Source: Endomicrobiia bacterium
GTDB lineage: Bacteria; Elusimicrobiota; Endomicrobiia; DTEH01
Reading direction: 5' to 3'
Assembly (NCBI GenBank): GCA_039630545.1
Contig: JBCNUU010000003.1
Span: 99,250 to 163,249 of the forward strand
Length of the DNA stretch: 64,000 bases
Positions 8,419 to 57,901 of this stretch are shown here, piece after piece. Both the position numbers and the translations under genes were made by a program. Each line of letters opens with the position of its first letter. Positions within the stretch are counted from its first letter, which is position 1. Under the pieces are notes generated by a model. It was not told where the DNA came from, did no database searches, and saw only the letters and a list, made by a program, of their open reading frames with translations.

Positions 8419-8834
8419 TCATTGTGATTCTTGTTTATAAAATTTTAATAATAACTGTGCTGGTTTTGCATCTTTTGTGGATTTCTTTTATGATTTATGG
8501 ATTTTTTTATAATATCGTAGGGCTATTCTTTAAAAAACAACTTTTGAAAAATTTCTGGTTAAGGACTCTTCATGTTGTAGGGATAATATATGTGGCAGTT
8601 ATTACTTTTTTAGATAAATATTGTCCTTTAACAATATTAGAGATTTATTTAAGAAGAAAGATAGAAAGTTCTTTCTCAGGTATGGATTCTTTTATAGTTT
8701 ATTATCTTGAGAAACTTATCTACCCTGAGGTGAATCCTGATCTGATAATAGTTCCTACTTATTTAATTGCAATTTTAAGTTTAGTAATATATATAATAAA
8801 ACCACCAATAAATTTCCAAATAAGGAGGCCATAA
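8400..8834 (+). CDS. hypothetical integral membrane protein
   Basis: 144 aa, 3-4 predicted hydrophobic helices, TTG start, no recognisable motif. Confidence 0.4.
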   Translation: MFYKSIIIVILVYKILIITVLVLHLLWISFMIYGFFYNIVGLFFKKQLLKNFWLRTLHVVGIIYVAVITFLDKYCPLTILEIYLRRKIESSFSGMDSFIVYYLEKLIYPEVNPDLIIVPTYLIAILSLVIYIIKPPINFQIRRP

Positions 8835-13331: not shown

Positions 13332-13665
13332 ATTTTTGTTCCTCCATTATTTTTATAGTTAACATAAACCTCATAGTTTTCAATTACATTTTCATTTTTA
13401 TTAAGACGAGAATCCTTTGAATATCCTACTATTTTACCACTATATCCAACATCTTTAAGTATTAAAAAGCACTTTCAATTAAACTGTGTTGTATAGTTAC
13501 ATCCCCTACTGGGAATAGCTTTGGTATTTTTGAACACCATATACAGATAATAGTAATCTAAGATAGCCTCATAAAAGCAATTTTTTAGATATCTCTAAGA
13601 AAACTCTCAGATGTTGATGAGGTAAAACCCACTGTTATGTCCACATTAATCCATAAATCTAATGT

Positions 13666-13686
13666 AAATTTACTTTAAGTAAATTT
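13666..13686. promoter_or_regulatory. 21-bp near-perfect palindrome AAATTTACTT-T-AAGTAAATTT in a roughly 1-kb ORF-free region; candidate operator
   Basis: Read directly from the sequence: 10-nt arms that are exact reverse complements around a single central T. Confidence 0.3.
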
Positions 13687-14003
13687 GGTGTTTTACTTAA
13701 TTTTTATATTACCTTAAGTATTCCTTTTGATCTCATTTTTATAGATTTCTTTAATAAAAAAGATAAAATTTGTTTTTTGTCTTACAAAATGGGACATGGA
13801 TGTAAATTTAGTAATTATGCGAAAATTAGTCATAGCTGAATTTGCAAATTTATACCTCGTTTACCGAAAGCTTTTTAATTATCATTTTAAAAATTTTCAC
13901 TATCATCATTTGTGTTACTTTTATAAAATTCGTGCTACTTTGTCAATATCAAAAAATTATTTTTTATTTTGAATATTGAAAACCAAAAGTTACTCGATAA
14001 GTT

Positions 14004-19672: not shown

Positions 19673-20248
19673 TTGAAAGTGAAAAAGATAGATAAACAAA
19701 AAATAGAAAAAGCAGTAAAAGATATCTTAACTGCTATAGGTGAAAATCCTGACCGCGAAGGATTAAAAGACACGCCAAAACGAGTTGCAAAATTTTATGA
19801 AGAAGCACTCAGTGGTTACTGGCAGAATCCAGAAGATGTTTTAACAATCTATTATGAAACTGAGGAACACGAAGAAGTTGTTTTAGAAAAAAATATACCT
19901 TTTTATTCAATATGTGAACACCATCTTCTTCCTTTTTTTGGCAAAATTCATATAGCATACATTCCTCACAAAAAACGCTTACTTGGAATATCAAAGTTAG
20001 CAAGGTTAGTTGAAGTTTTTTCAAAACGACTTCAACTTCAGGAGCGCCTTACTAAGCATATTGCAGAGGCTATAATGCAGAAAGCAAAACCATTAGGAGT
20101 AATGGTTGTATGTGAAGCTGAACATCTATGTCTTTCTATGCGAGGTGTTAAAAAGCCAGGTCATAAAGTTGTTACTTCCTGTATGAGGGGAATTTTTCTA
20201 AAAGATCTGCGCGCAAGGATGGAAGTTTTGCAGCTTATTGATCATTAA
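19673..20248 (+). CDS. folE: GTP cyclohydrolase I
   Basis: CEHHLLPF...HIAYIP active-site region. TTG start, with an alternative GTG at 19679. Confidence 0.9.
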
Positions 20249-20262
20249 ATATAAAGCTTCCG

Positions 20263-21093
20263 ATGAAAATAATAGGAATTCTTAATATCACTCCTGACTC
20301 TTTTTATGATGGAGGTAGATATTTTAAGATTGATGATGCACTAAAACACGTAGAAAAGCTTATAAATGAAGGTGCAGATATTATAGATGTTGGTGGAGAA
20401 TCCAGCAGACCTGGAAGCATCCCAGTTTCAGTTGAAGAAGAACTTAGTCGTGTGATTCCTGTGATAAAAGAAATAAAAAAACGCTGGCAGAATGTTGTAT
20501 TATCGATTGACAGTTATAAATATGAAGTAGTAAAACAAGCTTTAGAAAACGGTGTTGAAATTGTAAATGATATTTATGCCTTAAATTACTCACCAGCTAT
20601 TGTAGATTTACTAAAAACATATCCCACTACCAAAATAATCCTTATGCATATGAAAGGCACACCGCAGACAATGCAGTTAAATCCGCAATATCCTGCAGGA
20701 GTAATATCTGAAATTAAAGAATTCTTTATAGAAAGGGTGAAATTTTTGCTCGAACACGAAATAGATATAAAAAGAGTCATACTTGACCCCGGTATTGGTT
20801 TTGGTAAGACGACACAACATAATCTTGAGATATTAAAAAACTTAAAAGAATTAAAACAACTCACAATAAATGGAAAAAATTTCACATTTGATATACTCAT
20901 AGGTCTTTCAAGAAAAAGTTTTATAGGAAGAATTTTAGGTTCTGAAGAAAATCCGTTGCCGCCAGAGGAAAGATACGAAGCAACTGTCGCTTTACACTCT
21001 TATTGTATCTTGCAAGAAGTGGACTATTTGAGAGTGCACGATGTAAAAGCAACAAAGGACGCATTAAAAGTTTTAAGTTTACTTAAATCTTAA
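20263..21093 (+). CDS. folP: dihydropteroate synthase
   Basis: GILNITPDSFYDGG...DVGGESSRPG pterin-binding signature. Confidence 0.9.
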   Translation: MKIIGILNITPDSFYDGGRYFKIDDALKHVEKLINEGADIIDVGGESSRPGSIPVSVEEELSRVIPVIKEIKKRWQNVVLSIDSYKYEVVKQALENGVEIVNDIYALNYSPAIVDLLKTYPTTKIILMHMKGTPQTMQLNPQYPAGVISEIKEFFIERVKFLLEHEIDIKRVILDPGIGFGKTTQHNLEILKNLKELKQLTINGKNFTFDILIGLSRKSFIGRILGSEENPLPPEERYEATVALHSYCILQEVDYLRVHDVKATKDALKVLSLLKS

Positions 21094-21096
21094 GTT

Positions 21097-22059
21097 ATGA
21101 ATACTTTAGCTAAAGTAGTAAATATTCTTATAGAAAATCAGAATAAATATATTTCAGGACAAAAAATTGCAAAAATGTGTGGAATTTCCAGAGTCGCTGT
21201 TTATAAAATAATAAAGAAATTACTTTCCGAAGGATATGAGATAGAAAGAAACAAAAAAATTGGCTACAAACTAGTTTTTTATCCATTTATTGTTGAAGAA
21301 TTTCTTAAAAAAAATTTTAAGACAGTATCTAAAGTATATTATTTTAACCAGGTAACTTCCACTATGGATGTTGCCAAAGAACTTCTACAAAAGAATCCTC
21401 AGATACAAAACACATTAATAGTTGCTCAAAAACAAACCTCTGGTAAAGGGCGACTTCAAAGAAAGTGGTTGTCACCAGAAGGAGGTGTTTACTTTTCTTT
21501 AATTTTGCGACCTGAAGTTTTACCATCTGAAGTATTTTTTTTAAACTATGTGTTTTCTTTGTCTGTAGCAGAACTTCTAAAAGAACAATATTTAATAAAT
21601 GCCACCACAAAATGGCCCAATGATGTTGTAGTAGATAATAAAAAAATATGCGGAATTCTTATAGAAACAGACGCTGAAATAGATAGAGTCAACTGGTGTA
21701 TAGCAGGAGTAGGAGTAAATTTAAATATAAAGCAAACTTTCTTTGACAAAGCAAAGATAGATGCTACATCTGTTATGAGTTTAACTGGTAAAAAAATAAA
21801 TCCAAATCACTTTTTTTCTGAGCTATTTAAAAAAATAGATTTTTACTATGAAATGTTCTTAAAGAAAAAATATAAAGAGCTAACAGAAAAATGGAGTCAA
21901 TTTTCTTCTACCTTAGGAAAAGATGTAGAAGTCATCACACCAAAAGAGATCGTCAAAGGAAAAGCAATTTGTATCTTGCCACAAACAGGAGCCCTCATTA
22001 TAAAAACCTCATCAGGTACAAAAGAAATCCTTTCTGGTGATTGTATCCATTTAAGATAA
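21097..22059 (+). CDS. birA: bifunctional biotin-[acetyl-CoA-carboxylase] ligase / biotin operon repressor
   Basis: N-terminal HTH (ISGQKIAKMCGISRVAVYKIIKKL), catalytic core QTSGKGRLQRKW...KWPNDVVVDNKKICGILIE. Confidence 0.8.
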   Translation: MNTLAKVVNILIENQNKYISGQKIAKMCGISRVAVYKIIKKLLSEGYEIERNKKIGYKLVFYPFIVEEFLKKNFKTVSKVYYFNQVTSTMDVAKELLQKNPQIQNTLIVAQKQTSGKGRLQRKWLSPEGGVYFSLILRPEVLPSEVFFLNYVFSLSVAELLKEQYLINATTKWPNDVVVDNKKICGILIETDAEIDRVNWCIAGVGVNLNIKQTFFDKAKIDATSVMSLTGKKINPNHFFSELFKKIDFYYEMFLKKKYKELTEKWSQFSSTLGKDVEVITPKEIVKGKAICILPQTGALIIKTSSGTKEILSGDCIHLR

Positions 22060-22144
22060 AAATTTTTTGCAACAGTTGATTTTTGTTAACCAAAATTATA
22101 ATTTTAAGTTAACAAAAATTTAGCATATTAAAAAGGAGGAATCC

Positions 22145-23902
22145 ATGAAAAAAACCAAAATTATATTTTTTGTTTTCATATTAAACAGTTTCTGTTTTTC
22201 TTCAGAAGTTTATCTTGAAGCTACTAAGTCACCAAACATATCAGGTATTTATATAATAACCAAACAAGATCTACAAAACTCCGCTTCAGATAATTTAGTT
22301 GAAATTCTTAAAAAATATGGTGTCAACACTTTCAGCAGAAGCAACATCCAAACAGATGTTTCTTTAAATGGTGGAACTTTTGAACAAATAAAAATTTTTA
22401 TAGATGGAATTCCAATAAACGATCCTCAAACAGGCCATCACAACTTAAATATTCCCTTAAGCTTAAAAGATATAGAATCAATACAAATAATAAAAAACGA
22501 TAACTTTTCAAAATATCCTCAGGGTGCATTTTGTGGAGCGATAAATATTATAACTAAAAAAGACACTTCAAACTTTTTTAAACTTTCATATGGAAGTTTT
22601 AATACTTATTTAGCAAAAGCCCATATTTCACATCAAAACACATTAATATCACTTGAAGCAGGTAGTTGTTCCGGGTTCAAAGAAAACACAGACTACAATC
22701 TCTACAATGCATTTTATCAAACACAAATTAAAAATTCTAAATTTATTTTAGGAGTTTTAGACAAAAAATTTGGCGCGCAGGATTTCTACACAGCTCCTTC
22801 TACAAGAAAAGAATATGAACATATCCGAACTATTTTCATGGGTCAATCTTCTGATTTTATACTGAAAGATAATTTGGTGTATAATTTAAATATGTTTCTT
22901 AGAACCGGATATGATTTTTACACAACTCAAAGATATAACCCTCAAGTATACTCAAACTATCACAACAGTTATGTCTGGGGAATTACCAATAAATTTAAGT
23001 TGTACTACAAAAGCTTTATTTTTGAGCCGTTATTAGAGGCAGTATACAAAAACCTTGATAGTAAAGGATTCAGCTCTTTATTTAATTGGAAAGGCATGGG
23101 CGAGTTTTTTGACAGTGAATATAGAGTCGGTATAAACTCTATTTTCAACTACCATAATTTAGCTTTAGAACTTACATTTATTGAAAACTACTATTCAAGA
23201 TATAAATTTGTCCCACAGTTTGGCTCAAAACTTACATTTGATTTCTTACCAAAATCAAGCATCTTTTTTATATTTAGTAAACTTCATAGAGTTCCATCTT
23301 ATACTGAGTTATTTTACTGGGATCCTGCTCACCAGGCAGATGAAAACTTAAAGTTAGAACATACAACAACCTATCAGGCAGGATTAAATAAAAAATTAAA
23401 AAACATAGTTTCATTCTCCTTAGCAGGATTTTTTTATGAACCTACAAACACTATTGATTGGACAAGAACAAAAAACTCCACACAGCCATGGCGTATTACC
23501 AACATAGCAAAGGTAAAAACTTTTGGTGGAAACCTGAAGTTAGATTTTTCATATAAAAATTTTGATGTGAAACTTTACTATGAACATATATTAAAAGAGT
23601 TTAACTTAGATCCAACAAAAGAATTAAAATATATAGAAAACTATCCAAAAAACTTCTTAAGTTTAAGTTTAGGTTTTCATCAAGTTTTTGGATTTAATGT
23701 TTATGTTGAAAGTGTTTACAAACATCTCACTAAGACTAACCCTGATGATTTCACATTATTTAATTTAGGAATAAGAAAAACTTTTAAAAAAGTTAATTTA
23801 ACACTAAGTGTTGAAAATTTGTTTGATATTAAATATGAAGAAATACCAGGTGTTCAGCAACCACCAAGAAACATAATTTTTTCAGCAGAATTAAACTTTT
23901 AA
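22145..23902 (+). CDS. TonB-dependent outer-membrane receptor (short form)
   Basis: Signal peptide and plug-domain motifs (..VSLNGG..IKIFIDGIPINDP..). The C-terminal barrel ends in ...SAELNF with a terminal aromatic. Confidence 0.65.
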   Translation: MKKTKIIFFVFILNSFCFSSEVYLEATKSPNISGIYIITKQDLQNSASDNLVEILKKYGVNTFSRSNIQTDVSLNGGTFEQIKIFIDGIPINDPQTGHHNLNIPLSLKDIESIQIIKNDNFSKYPQGAFCGAINIITKKDTSNFFKLSYGSFNTYLAKAHISHQNTLISLEAGSCSGFKENTDYNLYNAFYQTQIKNSKFILGVLDKKFGAQDFYTAPSTRKEYEHIRTIFMGQSSDFILKDNLVYNLNMFLRTGYDFYTTQRYNPQVYSNYHNSYVWGITNKFKLYYKSFIFEPLLEAVYKNLDSKGFSSLFNWKGMGEFFDSEYRVGINSIFNYHNLALELTFIENYYSRYKFVPQFGSKLTFDFLPKSSIFFIFSKLHRVPSYTELFYWDPAHQADENLKLEHTTTYQAGLNKKLKNIVSFSLAGFFYEPTNTIDWTRTKNSTQPWRITNIAKVKTFGGNLKLDFSYKNFDVKLYYEHILKEFNLDPTKELKYIENYPKNFLSLSLGFHQVFGFNVYVESVYKHLTKTNPDDFTLFNLGIRKTFKKVNLTLSVENLFDIKYEEIPGVQQPPRNIIFSAELNF

Positions 23903-23909
23903 ACTTTTT

Positions 23910-24569
23910 ATGGAAAATTTAACATTAACAACAGCATATATAGCAGGGTTTTTAGCAAGTTTTACTCCGTGTGTTTATCCATTAATTCCTGTAGTAGTAG
24001 CATATATAGGAATACAAGCAGAATCTTCAATTCAAAAGAAGATTTTAGTTACTTTGAGTTATGTTTTAGGAGTATCTATTGTTTATTCCATCTTAGGAGC
24101 GGTAGCTTCTTTAAGTGGAAGTGTGTTTGGACTTACTCAGAATAGTTTCTGGGCTAATTTAGTGGTTGGGGTGGTGTGTCTTTTGTTTTCTTTGAGTATG
24201 TTCGGTTTATTTAAGATAAACTTTCAACTACAAAGATTTATAAATCCATCCATTTTTAGAGGATACTTAGGCGGCTTTATATTAGGAGCAACCTCTGGAC
24301 TTGTTTTTTCACCGTGTAGCACACCTGTATTAGGCACTATTTTAGTTTTGGTTGCAACAAAACAAAATATCTTATACGGTATGTTGTTACTTTTTGTGTT
24401 TTCTTTAGGTCTTTCAACCACACTTCTTTTAGCAGGAATTTTTAGCGGAGTGGCAACAAAACTTCCAAAGTCAGGAAGATGGACATTTGTTGTAGAAAAA
24501 ATTTTTGCATTTATTATTTTAGTTGTAGCGATAATTTATATAAGAAAAGCAATTCTTCTTTTAATTTAA
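23910..24569 (+). CDS. ccdA: cytochrome c-type biogenesis / thiol-disulfide transporter CcdA (DsbD family)
   Basis: Six TM helices with the two conserved Cys (SFTPCVYP and FSPCSTPVLG). Confidence 0.75.
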   Translation: MENLTLTTAYIAGFLASFTPCVYPLIPVVVAYIGIQAESSIQKKILVTLSYVLGVSIVYSILGAVASLSGSVFGLTQNSFWANLVVGVVCLLFSLSMFGLFKINFQLQRFINPSIFRGYLGGFILGATSGLVFSPCSTPVLGTILVLVATKQNILYGMLLLFVFSLGLSTTLLLAGIFSGVATKLPKSGRWTFVVEKIFAFIILVVAIIYIRKAILLLI

Positions 24570-24742
24570 TAGGCAACTTTATTTCTCATCTTAACTTCCA
24601 CACATCAAAAGTAATCATGTTTCTACTCTAAAAAACTTATTAGGACTATTTTCCGACGGAAAATACCTCGACAAATAAATTTGTATTTTGTAAAAAATAA
24701 CACTTTTTAGTTTTAATAATAAATAATTGGAGGTGAGGATTT

Positions 24743-24928
24743 ATGAAGTTTAAAATTTTTTTGTTGTTATTTTTACTTAGTCATATTCTATTTTGTGAAG
24801 TTCATAAAGAATTTCAATACACAGGTTTTTTGCGTGAGTTCGGCCAGACAGTAAGTGGTCAACGCACAATAGTTTTTAATATATATTCACAGCCTACAGT
24901 TGAGGTACCTTCAATCTTGAAAATTTAG
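24743..24928 (+). CDS. small hypothetical signal-peptide ORF (possibly the first fragment of a degraded gene)
   Basis: 61 aa, MKFKIFLLLFLLSHILFC signal-like N-terminus, GGAGGTGAGG RBS. It is followed by several short open stretches in other frames. Confidence 0.2.
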   Translation: MKFKIFLLLFLLSHILFCEVHKEFQYTGFLREFGQTVSGQRTIVFNIYSQPTVEVPSILKI

Positions 24929-25350
24929 CAACTTTATTATTATAAAACAACGGTCCATTTAGAAGGAATCCCATCAATTGAAGGTTATAAATTTGAAGAA
25001 ATGGTCTGAAGATATTGAGGCAGAGGCTAACTCTGTTTCAATTGTTATAAAGATACCTATATAAAAGCACATTTCAAAGAAATATCAAAACAACATGTTC
25101 TGTCAATAATATCTGTGTTAATTGATGGAGGAATAGTAGATAAGGAACCATTTAAGGATCACTCTGAGCACAACGAAGTTGTAAAACTCACACCTGTTGC
25201 TAAAACCTATATATAAATTAAAAGTTGGTCAATAATAATCTCTTCTGAAGGCGAAGAAATAGAAATAACAGATAATCCTTTATATCTTACGATGGGTTCC
25301 TTGAGCAAATGTTATAAATATGAAATCTAATATTTCAATTATAACAGCGT

Positions 25351-26053
25351 TTGTTAAAGAGAAATCTCTTTACTAAAATCTATATACAAAACTCTTTCTT
25401 ATCAGTAATGTTTAATCTTTTGATTTTAGAAAGAAGAACACTTTATGCTGAAAGTTTGAAAGAATTTTTTAAAAAATTAAAGATTTTTGACAAAATAGAA
25501 TATATTGATACAGTAGAGAAATGTTTTAAAATAATACGGAATAAAAACACATCTTTTTCTCTCATAATAATAGGTGAAATTCAACTGAAAAAAATTTTGT
25601 TATTTTTGTTCGTGAGATTAAAAAAATTTCACCTTCTGTTAAAATTCTTTGTTTATATGATCCTTCTGATAAAACTCCGAAAGAAAATTTTATTGTGCCC
25701 TTAATAGATGGATATGTTTCTGTTGAATGGACTGCTTCGGAGTTAAAAAATGGTATTCTGCATCTTCAAAAGGAAGGTATCTTATTCCCCAGAACTCTTT
25801 TTACATGTTTTTTTAGACATTTACATTCATATGACTTAAATAAAGATCAAAAACAGTCAATCATTTTTACGCCTAAAGAACAGATGATATTAAAAATGTT
25901 ATGTGAGGGAAGAATAAATAAAGAAATTGCTACTACTTTAAGAATTAAAGAAAAAAAACTGTTAAAAATCACCTGAATAAAATTTATCTTAAACTTGGGG
26001 TTAAAAAAAGAACAGAAGCAATTTTGCGCATGATTATACTTGGTATAATTTAG
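25351..26053 (+). pseudogene. LuxR/NarL-family response regulator disrupted by two -1 frameshifts in poly-A tracts (A7 at 25588-25594, A8 at 25951-25958)
   Basis: Frame 1: MFNLLILERRTLYAESLKEF...SLIIIGEIQL is a receiver-like N-terminus. Frame 0: ...NFVIFVREIKKISPSVKILCLYDPSD...PLIDGYVSVEW is the receiver C-terminus, followed by the LuxR HTH TPKEQMILKMLCEGRINKEIATTLRIKEK. Frame 2: TVKNHLNKIYLKLGVKKRTEAILRMIILGII* completes the HTH. Adding a single A in each tract restores one ORF. Confidence 0.55.
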
Positions 26054-26059
26054 GATTAA

Positions 26060-27403
26060 TTATTTTAAAAATTTTACAGAAGCTAAAGTTGCACCTAAAA
26101 ATTTTTCTTTTCCGCCATTGAGATAGTTTAGTCCTAATGATTGTCCATAAGTTACTTGTTTTATTATTTCAGGAGCTATTACTACATCAATAGCCCTTCC
26201 ATTAAATTCGCTGGCAGTAAATGTAATTTCAAAGTTTAGTTCGTCTTTAGAAATAGCTAAATCAGTGGCAGCATCTGATTTTACTTCTAATTGTTGTTGA
26301 TTCTGTTGAGATTTTGTGGTTACGATTTTGTCAATAAGTTCTCCAAAAGTATAAACTTCTCCTTCATTGTTTATTAATCTAAAATGTCCTTCTTTCCAGG
26401 TTTCATCTGCATAGATTTTTCCACCTCTAAGGTGGATTTTGTCAAAGCCGTCCGGCATAATTTTTGAAAGAGTATGGGTTATAGCTAAACCTAAATTTTT
26501 GGTTTCTACAAATTTTGAAACAAAAAGTTCACCAAATTTTACAAATTTTCCTTGTTCTGTATCATAATAACCATCTTTAGGTATTACTGGGGAGTCAGGA
26601 GTTGTAACTTTGGTTAATGCGGTTTCATCAAAACCATAAGTCGCGTTCCCTTTGAGTTCAGCTCCCGGAAATCTTATGTCTAAAGCTATCTCTGGGTTTT
26701 CAGTATTCCAGTTTATTATTCCATCAGTAGAATTTATATCAGTGATGCTTACATTAACATATTCTTTTATTTTTTGATAATCAGGTCCCCATATTTTTTC
26801 TCTGTGAGTAAACGATTCTGGCATCCACCAGGTATAAGTTGTTTGTTGTGGCTGGTCTAAAATGTAGTTGTAGTTAGCAGTATAGGTGTGTTTTTGAAGT
26901 TCACCGATTTCGTTTTCAACTCTGTAGTAGTCAACAGTGTTTGAAAGTTCCCATTCTCTTTTTACTAACCTGTTTTGTGGTGGATTTTCTCCTAAGTGAA
27001 ACCAGGTGTGGTTTCTTATTTTTGGCACATCTAAGATGTTTTCTATAGGTTTTTCAAAAGTAAGTAAGTCGTAGTAGTAGTTAAGTTTACGCCACGGTTC
27101 TTCTGCTTCTCTTTTGTTTAATACTAAAAATTTTACCTGGTTTTGTTGTGGTTTAAGGATATATTCTTCCACTCTTACTCTGTAACCATAAGCATCCCTT
27201 AATGATTTACCAAGTTGGTAGTCAGCTTGTTTTAATTCGTTTATGCTTTCATTAAGGTAGCCATCTTGTATAAACTCTATAGCTATTTCAGAGTTTAATT
27301 CTTGTGAGATGGTAAGTTCTTGTTGGACTGAAAGGTCCTCCTGGGAGTGTAGATATAATTGTATTAATAAAATTATTATTGTTGATATTAATATTTTTTT
27401 CAT
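26060..27403 (-). CDS. hypothetical secreted protein (447 aa), last gene of the ECF sigma operon
   Basis: Start reassigned to the ATG at 27403, preceded by GGAGG. Signal peptide MKKILISTIIILLIQLYLHS. No recognisable domain. Confidence 0.55.
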   Translation of the reverse strand: MKKILISTIIILLIQLYLHSQEDLSVQQELTISQELNSEIAIEFIQDGYLNESINELKQADYQLGKSLRDAYGYRVRVEEYILKPQQNQVKFLVLNKREAEEPWRKLNYYYDLLTFEKPIENILDVPKIRNHTWFHLGENPPQNRLVKREWELSNTVDYYRVENEIGELQKHTYTANYNYILDQPQQTTYTWWMPESFTHREKIWGPDYQKIKEYVNVSITDINSTDGIINWNTENPEIALDIRFPGAELKGNATYGFDETALTKVTTPDSPVIPKDGYYDTEQGKFVKFGELFVSKFVETKNLGLAITHTLSKIMPDGFDKIHLRGGKIYADETWKEGHFRLINNEGEVYTFGELIDKIVTTKSQQNQQQLEVKSDAATDLAISKDELNFEITFTASEFNGRAIDVVIAPEIIKQVTYGQSLGLNYLNGGKEKFLGATLASVKFLK

Positions 27404-27419
27404 TTTATTCCTCCTTTTT

Positions 27420-28016
27420 TTAACCTCTAATTCCGCATACATAGGTGTCTAATATAGAATTTTTTTTGCCAAAACTATCATAGGTATAATCTGTCGCGTT
27501 GGGATCGGGAATCCAGATTTCTTTGTCCACTACAAACATATATTGGTATCTTCCAGGTTTTAATGCAATCTCTGCAACCCACTTTCCTTTTTCTTTTTTG
27601 CATTTGGTTTTGTTTATGTCCCATTTGTTAAAGTCTCCTGCTATAGCCACAGATTGTGCTTCAGGTAAATCAATTTCAAACCTTACGACAACTCTTTTTT
27701 GATATATCTTTCTTGATAAAGGAAACCATAAAAGCATAAAAATTAAAATAATCCCAAAAACGAATGCTTGTTTTGGAAGAAAATTCGGTATAAACTTTTC
27801 TTCTTTTTTTGGGAGGTTTGATAAAATTTTAGAAATTAAATATTCAGGTGCTTCGGAGTGAGGTAGAGCTCCCAATTTTTCTAATTTTTCTTCTAATTTT
27901 AAGTAATTTTTGCAAAAAGGACAGTTTTTAATGTGGTGTTGAAGTGTTGAAACTTCTTTTTCACTTAACTGATTTTCCAGGTATTTTTGAAGAAGTTTGA
28001 CATTTTTGCATTTCAT
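27420..28016 (-). CDS. anti-sigma factor: N-terminal zinc-finger anti-sigma domain, one TM helix, C-terminal CBM48/AMPK-beta glycogen-binding-like domain
   Basis: HHIKNCPFCKNY is an H-x3-C-x2-C ZAS-type motif. TM helix AFVFGIILIFMLLWFPL. C-terminus VVRFEIDLPEAQSVAIAGDFNKWD...PGRYQYMFVVDKEIWIPDP resembles the AMPK beta GBD. Confidence 0.65.
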   Translation of the reverse strand: MKCKNVKLLQKYLENQLSEKEVSTLQHHIKNCPFCKNYLKLEEKLEKLGALPHSEAPEYLISKILSNLPKKEEKFIPNFLPKQAFVFGIILIFMLLWFPLSRKIYQKRVVVRFEIDLPEAQSVAIAGDFNKWDINKTKCKKEKGKWVAEIALKPGRYQYMFVVDKEIWIPDPNATDYTYDSFGKKNSILDTYVCGIRG

Positions 28017-28063
28017 ATTTTGTTGCCTCTTATTATATATACGCTTTAAAGTTCAAAAATGTT

Positions 28064-28597
28064 TCATATCTGAATTTTTAGCTTTTTGGCAAGCAATAGC
28101 TTTGCTCTAAACAACAAGGTTTTTACTGTACCAATTGGTTTAGAAGTAACTTCAGCAATTTCTTCATAGGAGAGGTTTTCTATGTATCTTAAAATAAGTA
28201 TATTTAGATATTTTTCTGGTAAAGTCCTTATTAAAGATAGAAGCATTTGGGATTCTAAATTTTTTTGAATAGATTCTTCAACTTTATCTTCACTATAAAT
28301 CAAATTTTTATGGTCTTCTAAAGAAACCGGTAGAAATTTTTTCTTTCTTAAAAAATCTTTAGCAGTGTTGATTGCTATTTTATATAACCAGGTTTTAAAA
28401 TTAAAATTTGATTTGTATTTTTTAAGATTCTTATATAATTTGATAAAAACCTCCTGGGTGAAGTCCTCAGTCTCTGTGTAGTTATTAAAGATAGACATAC
28501 CAAGGTTGTAGATGTAGTTTTTGTATTTCTTGATTATTTCTGCATAAGTGTTTATGTTTCCTTTTAAAACTTCTTTTATTATTTCTTCTTCGGTCAT
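28064..28597 (-). CDS. ECF-type RNA polymerase sigma factor (sigma-70 family, regions 2 and 4)
   Basis: Region 2 ...FTQEVFIKLYKNLKKY...WLYKIAINTAKDFLRKK and region 4 LSYEEIAEVTSKPIGTVKTLLFRAKLLL. Confidence 0.8.
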   Translation of the reverse strand: MTEEEIIKEVLKGNINTYAEIIKKYKNYIYNLGMSIFNNYTETEDFTQEVFIKLYKNLKKYKSNFNFKTWLYKIAINTAKDFLRKKKFLPVSLEDHKNLIYSEDKVEESIQKNLESQMLLSLIRTLPEKYLNILILRYIENLSYEEIAEVTSKPIGTVKTLLFRAKLLLAKKLKIQI

Positions 28598-29232
28598 TAT
28601 CTTTCTATGATTTCCTTCTCTTTTGTTTCCTTAAGAAGTTCTTTTTCTATTATTTCGTGTTTTGACTTGATTATGTTTTCCTTTATTAATTGGAAGGATT
28701 TTTTTGTGGAGATACCGTTTTTTATTATTTCTAAAGAAACCTCAGGACTGATGTTATTTTTTCTGGCATAGTTTATTAATGATAAAAATTTCAAACTTTC
28801 TTTTACAGGTAAATTTGAATTTGATGAAGTTTTTAAAATTTGAATTATTTCATAAAAGGTAATGCCTTGTTCTATCTGGTCAGCTAGATATTGAATGGAA
28901 TATTCCAGTTCACTTTTGGAAATTTTAGGGTAAAATTCGTCTACTAAAATTTTAGCGATTTTGTAGGTGCTGATTTTTTTAATAAGTGTAGTGTAGAAAA
29001 GCAAGTAGTCAACTTTTTTTGCTATAGCTTCTTTTACTCTTAAAAGAGCTAAATTATAAAGTATGTTGTCTGAGTTTATATATTTTTCCAGCGCAGTTGT
29101 AATGTTTAGAATTTGTTGTTCTGAAAAGTTAGTTTGAGTTTTTAAAATTTCTTTTATTTCATTCTGACTTCCAAAAGAAAATTTATATATTGTGAAAGTA
29201 AAAAGAATAAATATAAAGATTCTCTTTGCCAT
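28597..29232 (-). CDS. hypothetical secreted protein (211 aa)
   Basis: Signal peptide MAKRIFIFILFTFTIYKFSFG. Its stop overlaps the sigma-factor start (ATGA). Confidence 0.5.
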   Translation of the reverse strand: MAKRIFIFILFTFTIYKFSFGSQNEIKEILKTQTNFSEQQILNITTALEKYINSDNILYNLALLRVKEAIAKKVDYLLFYTTLIKKISTYKIAKILVDEFYPKISKSELEYSIQYLADQIEQGITFYEIIQILKTSSNSNLPVKESLKFLSLINYARKNNISPEVSLEIIKNGISTKKSFQLIKENIIKSKHEIIEKELLKETKEKEIIER

Positions 29233-29255
29233 TTTATCCTCCTGTTAGTTAGGTG

Positions 29256-30482
29256 TCAATACTTATAGTTTATTCCTAAAAGATAATAACCTCCATTGTA
29301 GTTATATTTATAAAATTTTTCATACTGCATATTGGACTTTGAGGCATAAAGATTAATTATAGTTTTTAAAGAGAAGTTGGAAGTAAATTTGTACTCAAAA
29401 GAAAAAGATAAATTTGTGTAATTGATGTAAATTTTCTCTTCTAAAAATTCTCCAGTATTTTCATCTTGAAGGGGTCTTTGGGGATAGTTTTTCCTTTCAG
29501 AGGTCAATGTAACAGATAAAATGGAAGGTTTTTCGTTTATCATAAATATATAACTAAATGGTAAAGTAACCTTAAAACTATTATAATCGTAGTAATCCTT
29601 GATAAATTTAGGATAATTGGGATCGATATAGAAGTGATTTTGATTTGAGTTAAGTGAACTTAATGTAAAGATTATTCCTATGTTTGAAGCAGAATTTTTA
29701 AAAAAAGTGCTTAAATAGCTAATGCCAAAACTTAAAGAAACTGTTTGATCCTTTCTTTTTTCTTCTATATACTGGGGGCCATCTACTACTAAGTTTTGCT
29801 CTATAAAGTTTTTAGTGTTTGTATTTAGGGAAACTTTTAAGGTTAATTTATCTGTGAGTTTAGCTTCATTTTCAATGTAGAAATGGATACTGTTATAGTC
29901 CAAAGGATGTGTTCCTGCGTTTATGGAATATTCTGCACCAAATGTTTCTTGAGCTTCATAGCTTAAAGATGTATAATTAGGAAAAATAATTTTACTAAAA
30001 TTAATTCCTGAAGATAAAATATTTCTTTTATTGAAATCTTTTGAGACTTCAACTCCTAAAGCGCTTCTTGTGTAGTTGTAAAGTCCATTTTCCCAGGTTT
30101 CATTTTTTGTTTCCTTTATAGCTTGATGTTTCAATACAATTTTTGGTTTTACTGAAAACTCATAAGGAAGTTTATGAATAAGTTTTATCACTAAAAGGCT
30201 ATCAAGTGTTTCCTGGTATAATGTCCCTCCACCTAACAACTCCTCAACTTCTTTAAAACCACAGTATCTTAAGTTTAATATAGGAAGAAGAGTTGTGGAT
30301 AAAGAAAATCTTAATCCTAAAGAAAAATTAGCATCAAGATAACCACTAAAACCACTTGTTTCACCTTCAAATGTATTCTGACCACCTAATAGAGATAAAT
30401 TTATTACTGGTATTAATTTCGTTTCCGAATAAAGACTATTAAAAAATATGGTTAATAATAAAACATATATTACCTTTTTCAT
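29256..30482 (-). CDS. putative outer-membrane beta-barrel protein (408 aa), first gene of the ECF sigma operon
   Basis: Signal peptide MKKVIYVLLLTIFFNSLYS, beta-strand-rich, C-terminal ...GINYKY. Confidence 0.5.
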   Translation of the reverse strand: MKKVIYVLLLTIFFNSLYSETKLIPVINLSLLGGQNTFEGETSGFSGYLDANFSLGLRFSLSTTLLPILNLRYCGFKEVEELLGGGTLYQETLDSLLVIKLIHKLPYEFSVKPKIVLKHQAIKETKNETWENGLYNYTRSALGVEVSKDFNKRNILSSGINFSKIIFPNYTSLSYEAQETFGAEYSINAGTHPLDYNSIHFYIENEAKLTDKLTLKVSLNTNTKNFIEQNLVVDGPQYIEEKRKDQTVSLSFGISYLSTFFKNSASNIGIIFTLSSLNSNQNHFYIDPNYPKFIKDYYDYNSFKVTLPFSYIFMINEKPSILSVTLTSERKNYPQRPLQDENTGEFLEEKIYINYTNLSFSFEYKFTSNFSLKTIINLYASKSNMQYEKFYKYNYNGGYYLLGINYKY

Positions 30483-30536
30483 AATACCCCCTTTTATTTA
30501 ACTACGAACTAAAATTTTAAGAAGTTTCTTTTATTT

Positions 30537-31040
30537 TTAAAATTCTATAAATTCTACACTTTTTGTGGTGGTATTTAAGATGGCTATTGTTTTTGTGTTA
30601 TGTAGCCATCCTCCTGCTTCTCCAGGATTTATGACAATGGTTTTTCCAAAATTTTTAAGGTCTTTTCTGTGTGTATGGCCATATATTATAAAGTCATAAT
30701 CTCCTGATTTTGCTAACTCTTCAAGATTCTGTGGTGGTTCATGAAAGATTATTAGCTTAAAGGATGAGTCATCTTTATGGAGAGAATACTCAAGAGGTGG
30801 AAGCTGAATTATTGAACCACGTTTAGTGTATTTTTCTTTTAGCATTTGTTTTTCTCCATCATTGTTGCCAAAAACAAGATGAATAGGACAGTTAAGTTTA
30901 TCAAAGTGAGAAAATGTTATAGGAGAAATAATGTCTCCTGCGTGGAATACCATTTCTACATTTTTTGAGTTAAAAATTTCTACTGCTTTATCAATTGCAG
31001 GCATATTCTCGTGTGTGTCGGAGATTATTCCGATGAGCAT
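30537..31040 (-). CDS. metallophosphoesterase (YfcE/MJ0936 family phosphodiesterase)
   Basis: IISDTHEN...FHAGD...GNND...GHTH calcineurin-like metal ligands. 167 aa. Confidence 0.75.
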   Translation of the reverse strand: MLIGIISDTHENMPAIDKAVEIFNSKNVEMVFHAGDIISPITFSHFDKLNCPIHLVFGNNDGEKQMLKEKYTKRGSIIQLPPLEYSLHKDDSSFKLIIFHEPPQNLEELAKSGDYDFIIYGHTHRKDLKNFGKTIVINPGEAGGWLHNTKTIAILNTTTKSVEFIEF

Positions 31041-31074
31041 ATATCCCTCCTGTGTTTTTAGCGGAAGTTTTTCT

Positions 31075-31167
31075 CGGAGGGGGCGGGATTCGAACCCGCG
31101 GTCCAGGTTTTAGCCCGGACAACTGCTTAGCAGGCAGCTGCCTTAAACCAATCTCGGCCACCCCTCC
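31075..31167 (-). tRNA. tRNA-Ser (anticodon GCU), long variable arm, no encoded CCA
   Basis: The reverse complement reads GGAGGGGTGGCCGAGATTGGTTTAAGGCAGCTGCCTGCTAAGCAGTTG...GCGGGTTCGAATCCCGCCCCCTCCG. It has a 7-bp acceptor stem, the CT-GCT-AA anticodon loop, a long extra arm and the TTCGAAT T-loop. Confidence 0.85.
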
Positions 31168-31262
31168 TTTAAACTTTTTAATTTTACTAAAATATTTACC
31201 TGTAAATCAACAAGTTGAAAACTCTATAAGAGATATTGTAAAAATTTTTTAAGTTTAAACTT

Positions 31263-32261
31263 ATGAAAAATAAACTTTTTCTTTTTTGTGCTTTGATTTT
31301 GTTTTCTTGTAGAAAAAATTTAAAGGAATTCAAAGAGATAAGATTTTTGATGGATACTATCTGTGAGATAAAAATTTTTTGTTATGATAGCAATTTGGCT
31401 AAAAAAGCTGTTGATGAAGTTTTCAAAGAAGTAGAGAAGATAGATAAAAAATTTGGATATTCTAAAGAAAGTGAAATAGAAAAAATCAATTCTAAAAGTG
31501 GTGTTTCTTTTTGTGAAGTTTCATATGAGGTTTTGAATTTAGTAAAAGAAAGCATAACACTTAGTAAACTTACAGATGGAGCTTTTGATATTACTGTTGG
31601 AGTTTTAAGTCACCTTTGGGGATTTAAAAATTTTAGTAATGAAAAAAAATTTAAAATCCCTCAAAAACATCAGATAGTTGAAGCTTTATCTCTTGTAGGA
31701 TATGAAAAAATTGTTATAGATGAAGAAAAAAATAGAATATTTCTTAAAAAAAGAGGAATGAAAATAGATCTTGGAGGAATTGCAAAAGGATATGCTATAA
31801 AAAAAGCAAAAGAAATTTTAGAATCATATGGGTTTGATAAGTTTTTAATAAATTTTGGAGGAGATATCTATTTAAAAAACAATACAGAAATTCCCTGGAG
31901 AGTTGCTATTCAACATCCACGAGATAGAAATAAGTTTCTGGCTGTTTTAAACCTTTATACAACATCCTGTGTAACATCTGGAGATTATGAAAGATATTTT
32001 ATGTTAGAGAATAAAAGATATCACCATATTTTTGATCCAAAAACAGGATATCCTGCTGATGATATAGTTTCTGTTACAGTTTTATGTGAGGATCCGGTTT
32101 TAGCTGATGCTTTATCCACTGGAATTTTTGTTTTAGGAGAAAAAAAAGGCATACAACTGGCAGAAAAACTAAAAATAGGTTGTATCATAGTAAAAGAAAA
32201 AAAGAACAAACTCTTCATCTATACAACACAAAATTTTAAAGGTATAGATTTTAATTTATAA
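31263..32261 (+). CDS. apbE: FAD:protein FMN transferase (ApbE family lipoprotein)
   Basis: Lipoprotein signal (LILFSC), ApbE core ...DLGGIAKGYA...SGDYERYF. Confidence 0.8.
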   Translation: MKNKLFLFCALILFSCRKNLKEFKEIRFLMDTICEIKIFCYDSNLAKKAVDEVFKEVEKIDKKFGYSKESEIEKINSKSGVSFCEVSYEVLNLVKESITLSKLTDGAFDITVGVLSHLWGFKNFSNEKKFKIPQKHQIVEALSLVGYEKIVIDEEKNRIFLKKRGMKIDLGGIAKGYAIKKAKEILESYGFDKFLINFGGDIYLKNNTEIPWRVAIQHPRDRNKFLAVLNLYTTSCVTSGDYERYFMLENKRYHHIFDPKTGYPADDIVSVTVLCEDPVLADALSTGIFVLGEKKGIQLAEKLKIGCIIVKEKKNKLFIYTTQNFKGIDFNL

Positions 32262-41708: not shown

Positions 41709-42804
41709 TATCTAAAAAATTTGATAGTTTTTTTAGAATATAAAATTTTTGTTTGTCATCTATTTTTGATTTTTCTACTAAACAGGTGAATAAACTCAAT
41801 GTTTCATCGTAATGTTTTTTGTCTATAGGATAAGGGTGTCCGTCTTTTCCACCAAAAGCAAATGAAAATCTTGCTGGATCCTGAGTGGAGACAGGATATC
41901 CATATATTACCTCAGATATTAAACCTAAAGCTCTCAAAGTTTTAGCTCCAACTCCTTCTACTGATATTAGATTTTTGAATGTGGTAATCTCTGTATCTTT
42001 AATTTTTGTAAATATTTTATAAAGTTTTTTGTAATCAAAATCTTCAGTTTTTATGTAATGCCTTTGAGGCAAAAATAAATCAGGTTGAGATTTTGAATTG
42101 ACGATTTTTTGCAATTCTTTTATGATGTTTTCGGGTTTTTGTAAAGTTGTATATTCAAGTATGCTGTTTTGGAGTGGTTCTGCATCTTTATTTACAAAAT
42201 TTAAAATTTTAGCTTCTTTTTTATCAGAAATAATTCCTGTGTGAGGAGAAATAATAAACTTTTCAGAGCCAGTTGTTGTGATTTTGTTAAACCAGTGGTA
42301 TCTTCTTGCGTATCCTGTGTTTGTGTTCATTCCCTGTTGAATCACACACCAGTTGCCATGTTTGTCTACAAAAATTGTATGATGATAAAGTTGATATCCA
42401 TCTTGAATACAACAGTTGTCTACCTTTGCTGTTAGTTTTGATAAAGCGATGAAAATTTCATTTTCAGATAAGTGTTTGCATTGCATGATTTCTTTTGGAG
42501 TATTTATTGCTGTTTTGCCTTTCCCCCCAAATATATATATACCATATTCAGGATAAGCTCTAAAAGCCTCTTTTATAGCAGCAGTTACTGTAGTTGTGAC
42601 ACCACTTGAATGCCAGTCAAATCCAGATATACATCCTAGAACTTGAAACCATACAGGATCAGAAAGTCGTTTGAGTAATTCTTGGCTACCATACTCTGTT
42701 ATTACTACCTTACAAATCTCAAATAAAAGTTTTTTTTGTCTTTCAAATAGCCATCTAGGAGCTTTTCCTGTGTGTAGGGGTAGATCAGCAGTTTTATATT
42801 TCAT
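41686..42804 (-). CDS. conserved hypothetical protein, DUF763-like (family assignment from memory), with C-terminal helix-hairpin-helix motif
   Basis: 372 aa. LHTGKAPRWLFERQ N-terminal conserved block. VEGVGAKTLRALGLISEVIYG is a canonical HhH (GIGxKTA) DNA-binding motif. Confidence 0.45.
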   Translation of the reverse strand: MKYKTADLPLHTGKAPRWLFERQKKLLFEICKVVITEYGSQELLKRLSDPVWFQVLGCISGFDWHSSGVTTTVTAAIKEAFRAYPEYGIYIFGGKGKTAINTPKEIMQCKHLSENEIFIALSKLTAKVDNCCIQDGYQLYHHTIFVDKHGNWCVIQQGMNTNTGYARRYHWFNKITTTGSEKFIISPHTGIISDKKEAKILNFVNKDAEPLQNSILEYTTLQKPENIIKELQKIVNSKSQPDLFLPQRHYIKTEDFDYKKLYKIFTKIKDTEITTFKNLISVEGVGAKTLRALGLISEVIYGYPVSTQDPARFSFAFGGKDGHPYPIDKKHYDETLSLFTCLVEKSKIDDKQKFYILKKLSNFLDNENSILS

Positions 42805-43762
42805 CTGTTAGAGTTGATATTTGTGGTAAAGTTTTTATTTTTAAATTACAGTCATCCCATATATAGTCAAATTCAAATGATAGAAATACTTTTTTAATAA
42901 ATTCTTTGCTTAAATTTTCTATAAAATTTATAAGGCTTCTGTAAATAGTTACTCTTATAGGTCTTGAATATCTAAATTTGCCGTCACTACACAAAATCAT
43001 TTCTGGAAAACACAGTTTGCTTTTTTTTTCTTTTAAAAATTTAAACTGTGTTTTTGTTAATCTTAATGTTGAAATAGATATAGAATGAAGATTTTTGGCT
43101 TCTATAGATGCTAATGCTTGAGCTATTATTTTTTTATATTCTTCAATAGTATTAAAAACTGACTCTACAAGAGTTTGATATGTTATGTCAAAGACTGGAT
43201 AAATAATAATGGGTTCTAATCTTAAACCTATAAGAAATCCAATTTTTTGAGCATACCATAAAGCTCTTATTCTTTCTTCTAAATTTAAAGTTTTATCTTC
43301 AAAGTTATTAATTATTATTTTTGGGGATAAGGTTACACCATATACGATTTTTATGTTATCATATAAAATTTCCTTGTTTTGCAATTCAAATATATTTGCA
43401 GTTTTTGTTCTTAATTCAACAAAACATTTTTTAGAATAAAACTTTGCTTTTTGAGAAATTATTAAACAGCATTTACTGAAAACTTCGATGTGTTTTTTAG
43501 TTAAAAAAGAGTCTGTAGTTTCTCCGAAGTTGAAATAGAAAACTTTCTTATTGGAATTTTTAAATAATTCTTCTGTTTCTGTTGCAAAATTTTCTATGTT
43601 CTCATAAATAACAGGTTTTGTTGAAATTTTTGAAAATTTCAAGTAACAGTACTCACAGTTAAAATTGCAGGTCTCCGCAAAAGATACAACAAACTCCTCT
43701 AAATCTATGACGTTTTTACCGTATAGATATTTTGAAATAAAACCTTTTTTTCTTAAATGCAT
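42794..43762 (-). CDS. radical SAM protein, spore-photoproduct-lyase-like (SplB / COG1533 'DNA repair photolyase' family)
   Basis: AETCNFNCEYCYL radical SAM cluster motif, in the arrangement seen in SPL-family enzymes. 322 aa. Confidence 0.6.
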   Translation of the reverse strand: MHLRKKGFISKYLYGKNVIDLEEFVVSFAETCNFNCEYCYLKFSKISTKPVIYENIENFATETEELFKNSNKKVFYFNFGETTDSFLTKKHIEVFSKCCLIISQKAKFYSKKCFVELRTKTANIFELQNKEILYDNIKIVYGVTLSPKIIINNFEDKTLNLEERIRALWYAQKIGFLIGLRLEPIIIYPVFDITYQTLVESVFNTIEEYKKIIAQALASIEAKNLHSISISTLRLTKTQFKFLKEKKSKLCFPEMILCSDGKFRYSRPIRVTIYRSLINFIENLSKEFIKKVFLSFEFDYIWDDCNLKIKTLPQISTLTDEI

Positions 43763-43765
43763 AAT

Positions 43766-45492: not shown

Positions 45493-45546
45493 TAAAGATT
45501 GAATTATATAAAAATTTATAATAAAATTCAACAAAATTTAAAAGTT

Positions 45547-57885: not shown

Positions 57886-57901
57886 AGTTTGGAGAAATTT
57901 T

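What the first reader, a model, noticed from the sequence alone, without database searches (positions are those of the whole stretch)
25351..26053. LuxR-family response regulator broken by two single-A deletions in A7 and A8 homopolymers; receiver domain also atypical
Three consecutive reading frames carry the receiver N-terminus, the receiver C-terminus plus first half of the HTH, and the rest of the HTH. Each junction falls exactly in a poly-A run (25588-25594 and 25951-25958), and inserting one A at each restores a single roughly 230-aa ORF. That is the signature of homopolymer sequencing error, of slipped-strand phase variation, or of a recent pseudogene. Even when repaired the receiver is unorthodox. 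It reads LLILERRTLY where ILIVDDHPLF is expected, and LIIIGEIQL where the phospho-acceptor Asp is expected. This suggests a phosphorylation-independent orphan regulator.
Basis: seen in the sequence. Interest (0 to 1): 0.55.

Follow-up and report, generated by a model that had tools for sequence, protein, structure and literature searches.

The report
Frameshifted, dead LuxR-type regulator gene
This is an ordinary, recently inactivated regulator gene in an uncultured Endomicrobiia bacterium, broken by length changes in two runs of A that appear identically in four independent assemblies, so it is neither a sequencing error nor an on/off switch.

Summary
A7 (25588-25594) and A8 (25951-25958) split one LuxR/GerE-type regulator gene (ATG 25408, stop 26051-26053) over three frames.

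One correction is needed. Site 1 is a 1-base loss. Site 2 is best read as a 2-base gain, because three of four relatives read GAA AAA ACT (A6) there.

The window comes from an NCBI MAG (Endomicrobiia bacterium, ABDH23_*). Three independent Logan assemblies of other runs carry the locus at 99.87-99.93% identity. Their SNP patterns differ, but all have the same A7 and A8. Elsewhere in the window, 138 A/T runs of 7 or more lie in frame inside open ORFs. A random assembly error is therefore effectively excluded, and no tract-length variation is seen.

Intact, syntenic orthologues exist at 56-61% identity. dN/dS (0.18) matches the neighbouring genes, and a relative-rate test is balanced (19 vs 20 changes). 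The decay is therefore recent.

The receiver-like domain lacks the phospho-acceptor Asp, the second acidic Asp, the Thr/Ser and the Lys in every clade member. It is an inherited pseudo-receiver, not a result of the decay.

GenBank annotates only the 93-aa middle fragment as a regulator. Verdict: a fixed recent pseudogene of low interest.

The parts
25408..26053 (+). Whole pseudogene: a LuxR/GerE-family regulator with an Asp-less receiver-like N-terminal domain, split over three frames
   Evidence: The syntenic intact orthologue is P0001 in L001.
25408..25587 (+). Segment 1 (frame of 25408): receiver-like beta1-alpha1-beta2-alpha2-beta3, residues 1-60
   Evidence: tblastn of P0001 residues 1-58 maps to 25408-25584. 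See also the codon alignment.
25588..25594 (+). Lesion 1: an A7 tract, one base short of the in-frame A8 (CTG AAA AAA AAT TTT)
   Evidence: The tract is identical in L012, L013 and L014.
25702..25704 (+). Premature stop reached in frame 1 after 36 out-of-frame codons. The product as it stands is 98 aa with no HTH.
25595..25950 (+). Segment 2 (second frame): the rest of the receiver-like domain (alpha3 to alpha5, the DGYVSVEW motif), the linker helix and the first half of the HTH
   Evidence: tblastn of P0001 residues 58-177 maps to 25587-25955.
25695..25976 (+). The 93-aa ORF (GTG start) that GenBank annotates as 'LuxR C-terminal-related transcriptional regulator' (MEN3013558.1). It is only the middle fragment and lacks the recognition helix.
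25951..25958 (+). Lesion 2: an A8 tract where three of four relatives have A6 (GAA AAA ACT), so a +2 expansion. In frame it forms an A_AAA_AAA heptamer.
   Evidence: The tract is identical in L012, L013 and L014.
25959..26053 (+). Segment 3 (third frame): the HTH recognition helix and C-terminus (TVKNHLNKIYLKLGVKKRTEAILRMIILGII), with the natural stop at 26051-26053
25351..25379 (+). Weak sigma-70-like promoter match (TTGTTA-17-TAAAAT) 29 nt upstream of the ATG. The window has no Shine-Dalgarno where the close orthologues have AGAGG or AGGAG.
   Evidence: One search found 12 sites against 9.4 expected, which is not significant.

Best explanation
This is a recently inactivated regulator gene, a pseudogene fixed in this Endomicrobiia population. 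The ancestral gene encoded a protein of about 214 aa. It had an N-terminal receiver-fold domain that cannot be phosphorylated (a pseudo-receiver) and a C-terminal LuxR/GerE helix-turn-helix. Replication slippage changed the length of two ordinary Lys-codon A-runs: A8 to A7 at 25588-25594, and A6 to A8 at 25951-25958. The first change stops translation after 62 native and 36 junk residues. The second puts the DNA-recognition helix out of frame. Fixing either one alone therefore gives no working protein. Once the first hit had removed function, further tract changes were neutral. That explains why both lesions sit in one gene while all other runs in the window stay in frame. Shown here: the lesions, their reproducibility across assemblies, the intact orthologues and the absence of long-term relaxation. 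Inferred: the order of events, slippage as the mutational mechanism, and that little or no functional protein is made.
For: The lesions and three-frame layout are. The closest one, P0001, shares the gene order pterin-binding gene, BirA, TonB receptor, CcdA, then regulator and the 444/447-aa gene. The codon alignment gives the ancestral states at both sites. The window is NCBI MAG ABDH23_*. Three Logan assemblies from runs SRR28200751, SRR28200752 and SRR28200759 match at 99.87-99.93% with 5-9 differences each. All three have the same A7 and A8, and none of the 18-19 A/T runs of 7 or more that were compared changes length. No repaired allele (full-length, or fixed at site 1 or site 2 only) is in the 15-billion-protein collection. 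In the window, 138 A/T runs of 7 or more lie inside open ORFs, and only these two break a frame. The chance that two random hits fall in one gene is 0.017. The adjoining ORFs whose boundaries lie near A/T runs are separate genes, most with their own full-length Pfam domain. dN/dS against the orthologue is 0.18, compared with 0.19, 0.18 and 0.20 for BirA, the TonB receptor and CcdA. The relative-rate test gives 19 window-specific against 20 orthologue-specific changes, mostly conservative. Decay is therefore recent. No significant RNA structure lies downstream of either site.
Against: Apart from the two tract changes the gene looks pristine: no nonsense codon, no other indel and no rate acceleration. 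That is also what a still-functional gene would look like. Both sites are slippery for -1 ribosomal slippage or for transcriptional insertion of an A, so trace amounts of full-length protein cannot be excluded. All the evidence is at consensus level from short-read-type assemblies of what is probably one project. Minority alleles in the population were not examined.
Confidence: 0.85

Rival explanations
1. Sequencing or assembly error at homopolymers: the real gene is intact and the MAG consensus miscounts both A-runs.
For: Both junctions lie exactly in homopolymers. The gene is otherwise undamaged and shows the same selective constraint as its neighbours. The source is a MAG.
Against: Three other assemblies from different runs, each differing from the window by SNPs, give the same A7 and A8. 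In the window, 138 other A/T runs of 7 or more, including the other A8/T8 and 9-mer runs, are in frame inside ORFs. The chance that two random errors share one gene is 0.017. Site 2 is longer than the orthologues' A6. An error would therefore need a +2 overcall, or a true A9 allele carrying an extra Lys in the HTH turn that no homologue has.
Confidence: 0.03
2. Slipped-strand phase variation: the gene is a contingency locus that switches on and off through tract-length changes.
For: Frame-breaking homopolymers in an otherwise intact regulator gene. The gene has 5 runs of 7 or more in 646 bp, about three times the window average.
Against: Two separate tracts are out of frame at once, so the ON state needs two simultaneous changes. 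Four assemblies with at least three haplotypes show no tract-length difference. No ON allele is in the protein collection. A7 and A8 are commonplace here, with 163 runs in 64 kb. Tracts in known contingency loci are usually longer (background knowledge). The orthologues have plain in-frame Lys codons at both sites and no extended tract.
Confidence: 0.05
3. A functional gene expressed by recoding. Either -1 ribosomal frameshifting or transcriptional insertion of one A at both runs yields some full-length regulator.
For: Both shifts go in the same direction, -1. Site 2 is a perfect in-frame A_AAA_AAA heptamer. Site 1 allows P-site slippage of tRNA-Lys on A_AAA. Transcriptional insertions occur in A/T runs and rise exponentially with run length (PMC5574713). 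The gene shows no other decay.
Against: Orthologues at 44-61% identity are unbroken, so no recoding signal is conserved. There is no significant downstream RNA structure (z = -0.94 and -0.45). Two low-efficiency events would have to occur on the same message, so the yield is the product of two small numbers (inference). The product would carry an extra Lys in the HTH turn. The transcriptome study of Buchnera found no case of a frame restored by a transcription error (PMC5574713). The Shine-Dalgarno present in the close orthologues is missing here.
Confidence: 0.04

Closest known systems
NarL/FixJ (LuxR-type, GerE HTH) response regulators such as VraR, LiaR, RcsB, DesR and NarL
   Same: The domain order is the same: a receiver fold, a linker helix and a four-helix GerE HTH. 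The family profile hits VraR at 7e-16 and LiaR at 2.4e-15. The AF2 model of orthologue P0001 (pLDDT 85.7) matches LiaR, VraR, spr1814 and RcsB over the full length. Its N-terminal domain superposes on the VraR and RcsB REC domains (TM 0.80-0.81, rmsd 2.5-2.8 A).
   Different: Four of the five phosphotransfer residues are missing. The second acidic Asp is R or S, the phospho-acceptor Asp is G or C, the Thr/Ser is Y and the Lys is V. Pfam PF00072 does not score. No kinase gene is nearby. The window copy is also frameshifted.
Pseudo-receiver / aspartate-less receiver (ALR) regulators of the same superfamily, such as VpsT and CsgD
   Same: A receiver fold without phosphotransfer chemistry is fused to a LuxR-type HTH. 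The best full-length NCBIfam match is CsgD (1.7e-18, far below its cut-off). VpsT appears among both the sequence and the fold matches. Pseudo-receivers make up several percent of annotated receiver domains (PMC12632262; PMC4395418).
   Different: It is not a member of the CsgD or VpsT families (67 bits against a cut-off of 250). By eye the sequence has no W[FLM][TS]R c-di-GMP motif (the motif is recalled from memory and was not formally tested). Instead it has its own conserved DGY[IV]SVEW motif. The activating signal is unknown.
Homopolymer-frameshift pseudogenes in AT-rich bacterial genomes
   Same: A/T-run length changes are the first lesions in a gene that is otherwise intact. The genome has 29.6% G+C and dense A/T runs.
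   Different: There is no sign of genome-wide decay in this window. All other sizeable ORFs are open and densely packed.

Membership tests
LuxR/GerE-type HTH transcription regulators (Pfam PF00196) | C-terminal four-helix GerE HTH scoring above Pfam's gathering threshold | tested here: met
   The repaired product scores 52.5 bits against a cut-off of 23.5, over residues 154-207. This holds only after repair, because in the DNA as it stands the recognition helix is in another frame.
Two-component response regulators (phosphorylatable receiver, PF00072) | Conserved DD, phospho-acceptor D, T/S and K of the receiver active site | tested here: not met
   At these columns 75-77 of 78 canonical homologues have D, D, S/T and K. 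The window and P0001-P0004 have R/S, G/C, Y and V. The wider clade also has G at the acceptor column. PF00072 is not detected.
Two-component response regulators (phosphorylatable receiver, PF00072) | (beta/alpha)5 CheY-like fold of the N-terminal domain | tested here: met
   The AF2 model of orthologue P0001 shows E2-7, H11-22, E27-33, H36-45, E51-54, H61-71, E76-81, E99-102 and H107-118. Foldseek gives TM 0.80-0.81 to the VraR and RcsB REC domains. Only the orthologue was modelled, not the window sequence.
Pseudo-receiver / aspartate-less receiver regulators | Receiver fold lacking the phospho-acceptor Asp, conserved as such among intact relatives | tested here: met
   Searches cover the residues, and searches cover the fold. 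The definition is taken from PMC12632262 and PMC4395418.
CsgD / VpsT family | Score above the NCBIfam CsgD equivalog cut-off | tested here: not met
   67 bits against a cut-off of 250.
Pseudogene (fixed, non-functional copy) | Frame-disrupting lesions relative to intact orthologues, reproduced in independent data | tested here: met
   Searches show the lesions against orthologues. Searches show the same lesions in three further assemblies.
Pseudogene (fixed, non-functional copy) | Absence of a functional product | not testable with these tools
   This needs expression, proteomic or read-level data.
Phase-variable contingency locus | Tract-length heterogeneity between or within populations, with a single tract toggling the frame | tested here: not met
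   Tract lengths are identical in four assemblies. Two tracts are out of frame. No ON allele is on record. Within-sample heterogeneity was not testable.
Programmed -1 ribosomal frameshift / transcriptional slippage gene | Shift site conserved in orthologues, with a stimulatory element | tested here: not met
   The orthologues are unbroken. No significant downstream structure is present. A slippery heptamer does exist at site 2.

The most novel reading that the evidence does not exclude
The two frameshifts are tolerated because slippage on both A-runs still yields a trickle of full-length regulator. The slippage could be transcriptional insertion of an A or -1 ribosomal slippage on G_AAA_AAA and A_AAA_AAA. 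The locus would then be a doubly recoded, strongly down-tuned gene rather than a dead one. Separately, the intact relatives define an uncharacterised clade of Asp-less LuxR-type regulators. The clade has G at the acceptor position and a DGYISVEW motif, and it is always found next to BirA, a TonB receptor and CcdA. Its activating signal is unknown.
Probability: 0.04. Interest if true: 0.55.

Novelty: new member of a known kind. Interest (0 to 1): 0.14.

Why it matters
The result matters mainly for annotation. The public record (MEN3013558.1) presents a 93-aa middle fragment as a LuxR-type regulator. The locus should be marked as a frameshifted pseudogene, and its regulatory function should not be counted for this organism. 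It is also a clean small example of how the first lesions of gene decay in an AT-rich genome fall in A/T runs. It shows how independent public assemblies can settle the question of sequencing error versus real frameshift without raw reads. The intact relatives point to an unstudied clade of pseudo-receiver regulators, but pseudo-receivers as a class are well known.

Tried and rejected
Scans of genome contigs and metagenome contigs with the repaired protein and with the family alignment found only the contig already known (JANXCA010000020) and one unrelated HTH hit. No closer genome turned up that way.

Exact look-ups of the neighbours in the gene-position index failed. The source was identified only through the protein search with the 447-aa neighbour and through cluster look-ups.

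The word-index search with the repaired protein did not return the 93-aa fragments, although they are in the collection. Absence from that list is therefore not evidence of absence.

I suspected a second decayed gene in the 780-bp gap 24570-25350, where one frame has five in-frame stops. Pfam and the homologue search found nothing, so this is unsupported.

I checked adjoining same-strand ORFs whose boundaries lie near A/T runs for further frameshifts. The ORFs were 6965-8834, 42794-45534, 56803-58612 and 27420-28016. All but one (43766-44194, no Pfam hit) carry their own Pfam domain and look like separate genes.

I searched for -1 frameshift stimulators downstream of both sites and found none of significance.

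A search of the paper library for the run accessions and the locus-tag prefix found nothing. The sequencing platform therefore remains unknown to me.

Full report
THE OBSERVATION. The window has 29.6% G+C. It reads G-A7-T at 25588-25594 and G-A8-C at 25951-25958. From ATG 25408, the first frame encodes MFNLLILERRTLY...IIIGEIQLKK and then runs into junk, ending at a stop at 25702-25704. The next frame, one base back, carries NFVIFVREIKK...DGYVSVEW...IATTLRIKEKK and ends at 25974-25976. The third frame, again one base back, carries TVKNHLNKIYLKLGVKKRTEAILRMIILGII and ends at 26051-26053. tblastn with the closest intact homologue hits these three frames in order, with breaks at the two A-runs. 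The repaired product matches Pfam GerE at 3.9e-14. Its best full-length NCBIfam match is CsgD, far below that family's cut-off.

WHAT THE LESIONS ARE. A database search found intact full-length relatives. P0001 is 208 aa, 56% identical by BLAST and 61% over the aligned columns. P0002 and P0003 are 216 and 221 aa and about 44% identical. P0004 is partial. A codon alignment with their DNA shows two things. At site 1 the repaired CTG AAA AAA AAT TTT (QLKKNF) matches CAA AAA AAT TTC (QKNF) in the orthologue, so the window is one A short. At site 2, L001, L004 and L006 read GAA AAA ACT (A6), and L010 reads GAA AGA ACT. The window's A8 is therefore two bases longer than the ancestral tract. None of the roughly 30 aligned homologues has a residue there. 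So there is one contraction and one expansion, not two single-A deletions.

SOURCE AND REPRODUCIBILITY. The 447-aa neighbour is identical to MEN3013559.1 (ABDH23_02950) of an NCBI MAG named 'Endomicrobiia bacterium', on a 237.5-kb contig. In that record CcdA is MEN3013556.1 and a 61-aa ORF is MEN3013557.1. The 93-aa middle fragment (25695-25976) is annotated as 'LuxR C-terminal-related transcriptional regulator', MEN3013558.1. The N-terminal fragment has no protein entry.

The same 93-aa product, or a one-residue variant of it, is also called on Logan contigs from three other runs: SRR28200751, SRR28200752 and SRR28200759. Aligned to the window over 6.8-7.6 kb, these contigs are 99.87-99.93% identical. 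They differ from the window and from each other by 5-9 changes. All three have A7 and A8 at the two sites. None of the 18-19 A/T runs of 7 or more in the compared stretches differs in length. None of the conceivable repaired alleles is in the 15-billion-protein collection.

Within the window, 138 A/T runs of 7 or more lie inside open ORFs without breaking them. The only two frame-breaking runs share one 646-bp gene, and two random hits would do that with probability 0.017. The adjoining ORFs whose boundaries lie near A/T runs look like separate genes; nine of the ten tested have their own Pfam domain.

AGE OF THE LESIONS. P0001 lies in the same gene order as the window copy: pterin-binding protein, BirA, TonB-dependent receptor, CcdA, then the regulator, then the 444/447-aa gene on the other strand. 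Against that orthologue the repaired gene has dN/dS 0.18. BirA, the receptor and CcdA give 0.19, 0.18 and 0.20. Synonymous sites are close to saturation, so this test is blunt. With P0002/P0003 as outgroup, 19 amino-acid changes are specific to the window lineage and 20 to the orthologue lineage. The window-specific ones are mostly L/I, K/R or I/V exchanges. The gene was therefore under normal constraint for nearly all of its history. The frameshifts are recent on that scale, but they pre-date the approximately 0.1% haplotype diversity of the present population.

One SNP inside the gene, 25872 C>T in L012, changes Pro to Ser. The two closest orthologues have AGAGG or AGGAG 6-7 nt before the ATG, and the window has no such motif. 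This may be a third lesion. However, only about 45% of genes in the window have such a motif, so the point is weak.

ALTERNATIVES. Phase variation would require two tracts to change together, and no length variation is seen. The tracts are no longer than 160 others in the window, and the orthologues have plain Lys codons at both sites.

Recoding is mechanistically conceivable. Both shifts are -1. Site 2 is an in-frame A_AAA_AAA heptamer, and site 1 allows P-site slippage. Transcriptional insertions do occur in A/T runs and rise exponentially with run length (PMC5574713). Against recoding, there is no significant downstream structure (z = -0.94 and -0.45). No orthologue conserves a shift site. 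Both events would be needed on one message. The product would also carry the extra Lys.

I therefore commit to a dead gene. The 98-aa product from the ATG lacks the HTH. The annotated 93-aa fragment lacks the recognition helix.

THE RECEIVER-LIKE DOMAIN. In an 82-sequence alignment, 75-77 of 78 canonical homologues have D, D, S/T and K at four signature columns. These are the second acidic Asp, the phospho-acceptor Asp, the beta4 Thr/Ser and the beta5 Lys. The window and P0001-P0004 have R/S, G/C, Y and V there. The first acidic position is E or D. Pfam PF00072 scores on none of them.

An AlphaFold2 model of P0001 (pLDDT 85.7) has a (beta/alpha)5 N-terminal domain with a weak alpha4, then a long linker helix and a four-helix HTH. 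Foldseek matches LiaR, VraR, spr1814, RcsB, DesR and VpsT over the full length. It also matches isolated REC domains at TM 0.80-0.81.

An exhaustive HMM search found about ten more 50%-identity clusters of the same architecture. Ten of these clusters were aligned with the family. Eight have G at the acceptor column (the other two have F and E), and all ten keep the Trp that follows beta5. The atypical receiver is therefore an inherited feature of a clade of intact proteins. It is a pseudo-receiver in the sense of PMC12632262 and PMC4395418, not a symptom of decay. How the intact proteins are activated is unknown.

CONTEXT. In every relative seen, the regulator sits beside the BirA, TonB-receptor and CcdA cluster. 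The closest relatives (L001, L011) also have TrbC/TrbI-like genes upstream and a 798-aa DUF4434/Big_7/CHU_C gene immediately downstream. The window lacks all of these. It is tempting to think the regulator became dispensable when those neighbours were lost. That is inference only.

VERDICT. This is a real, reproducible, recent pseudogene of a pseudo-receiver LuxR-type regulator, mis-annotated in GenBank as a short regulator. It is an ordinary kind of feature and of low interest.

Noticed in passing
window 24570-25350: A 780-bp gap lies upstream of the broken gene. It holds only a 61-aa signal-peptide-like ORF (24743-24928, MEN3013557.1). That frame reads on through five in-frame stops with protein-like text, but Pfam and the homologue search found nothing. 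In relatives L001 and L011 the equivalent interval is about 4 kb and holds TrbC/TrbI-like genes.
   Followed up: partly
window 26054-26059, compared with L001 8674-11073 and L011 1421-3817: The closest relatives carry a 798-799-aa DUF4434/Big_7/CHU_C gene between the regulator and the 444-aa gene. It is absent here, and tblastn finds no trace of it anywhere in the window. Its loss may be linked to the regulator becoming dispensable.
   Followed up: partly
window 25380-25407, compared with L001 7975-8000 and L011: The close orthologues have AGAGG or AGGAG 6-7 nt before the ATG. The window has none, and the pairwise alignment shows a 6-nt gap there. This may be an additional lesion. Only about 45% of window genes have such a motif.
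   Followed up: partly
window 42794-44194 (- strand): The spore-photoproduct-lyase-like ORF 42794-43762 matches its Pfam profile only from position 78. It is preceded in the same frame by a 142-aa ORF without Pfam hits (43766-44194), separated from it by a single stop. This could be a nonsense-split gene or simply two tightly packed genes.
   Followed up: no
L012, L013, L014 against window 19694-31976: The population carries several haplotypes, with 5-9 differences per roughly 7 kb. These include a Pro-to-Ser change inside the pseudogene (25872 C>T, L012) and a 1-bp deletion at 25380 in its leader (L014).
   Followed up: yes
P0129, P0130, P0132-P0134, P0137, P0141, P0148, P0154, P0155 (alignment A6): There is a wider, uncharacterised clade of LuxR-type regulators. 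Most have G in place of the phospho-acceptor Asp, all keep a conserved Trp after beta5, and most have a KEG..(F/I/L)P(K/R) motif. All those seen with context lie next to BirA, a TonB receptor and CcdA.
   Followed up: partly
window 13384-14003: A roughly 620-bp stretch has no sizeable ORF, tRNA or Rfam hit. It lies between an outer-membrane-like gene and a 65-aa ORF next to a NikR-like gene.
   Followed up: no
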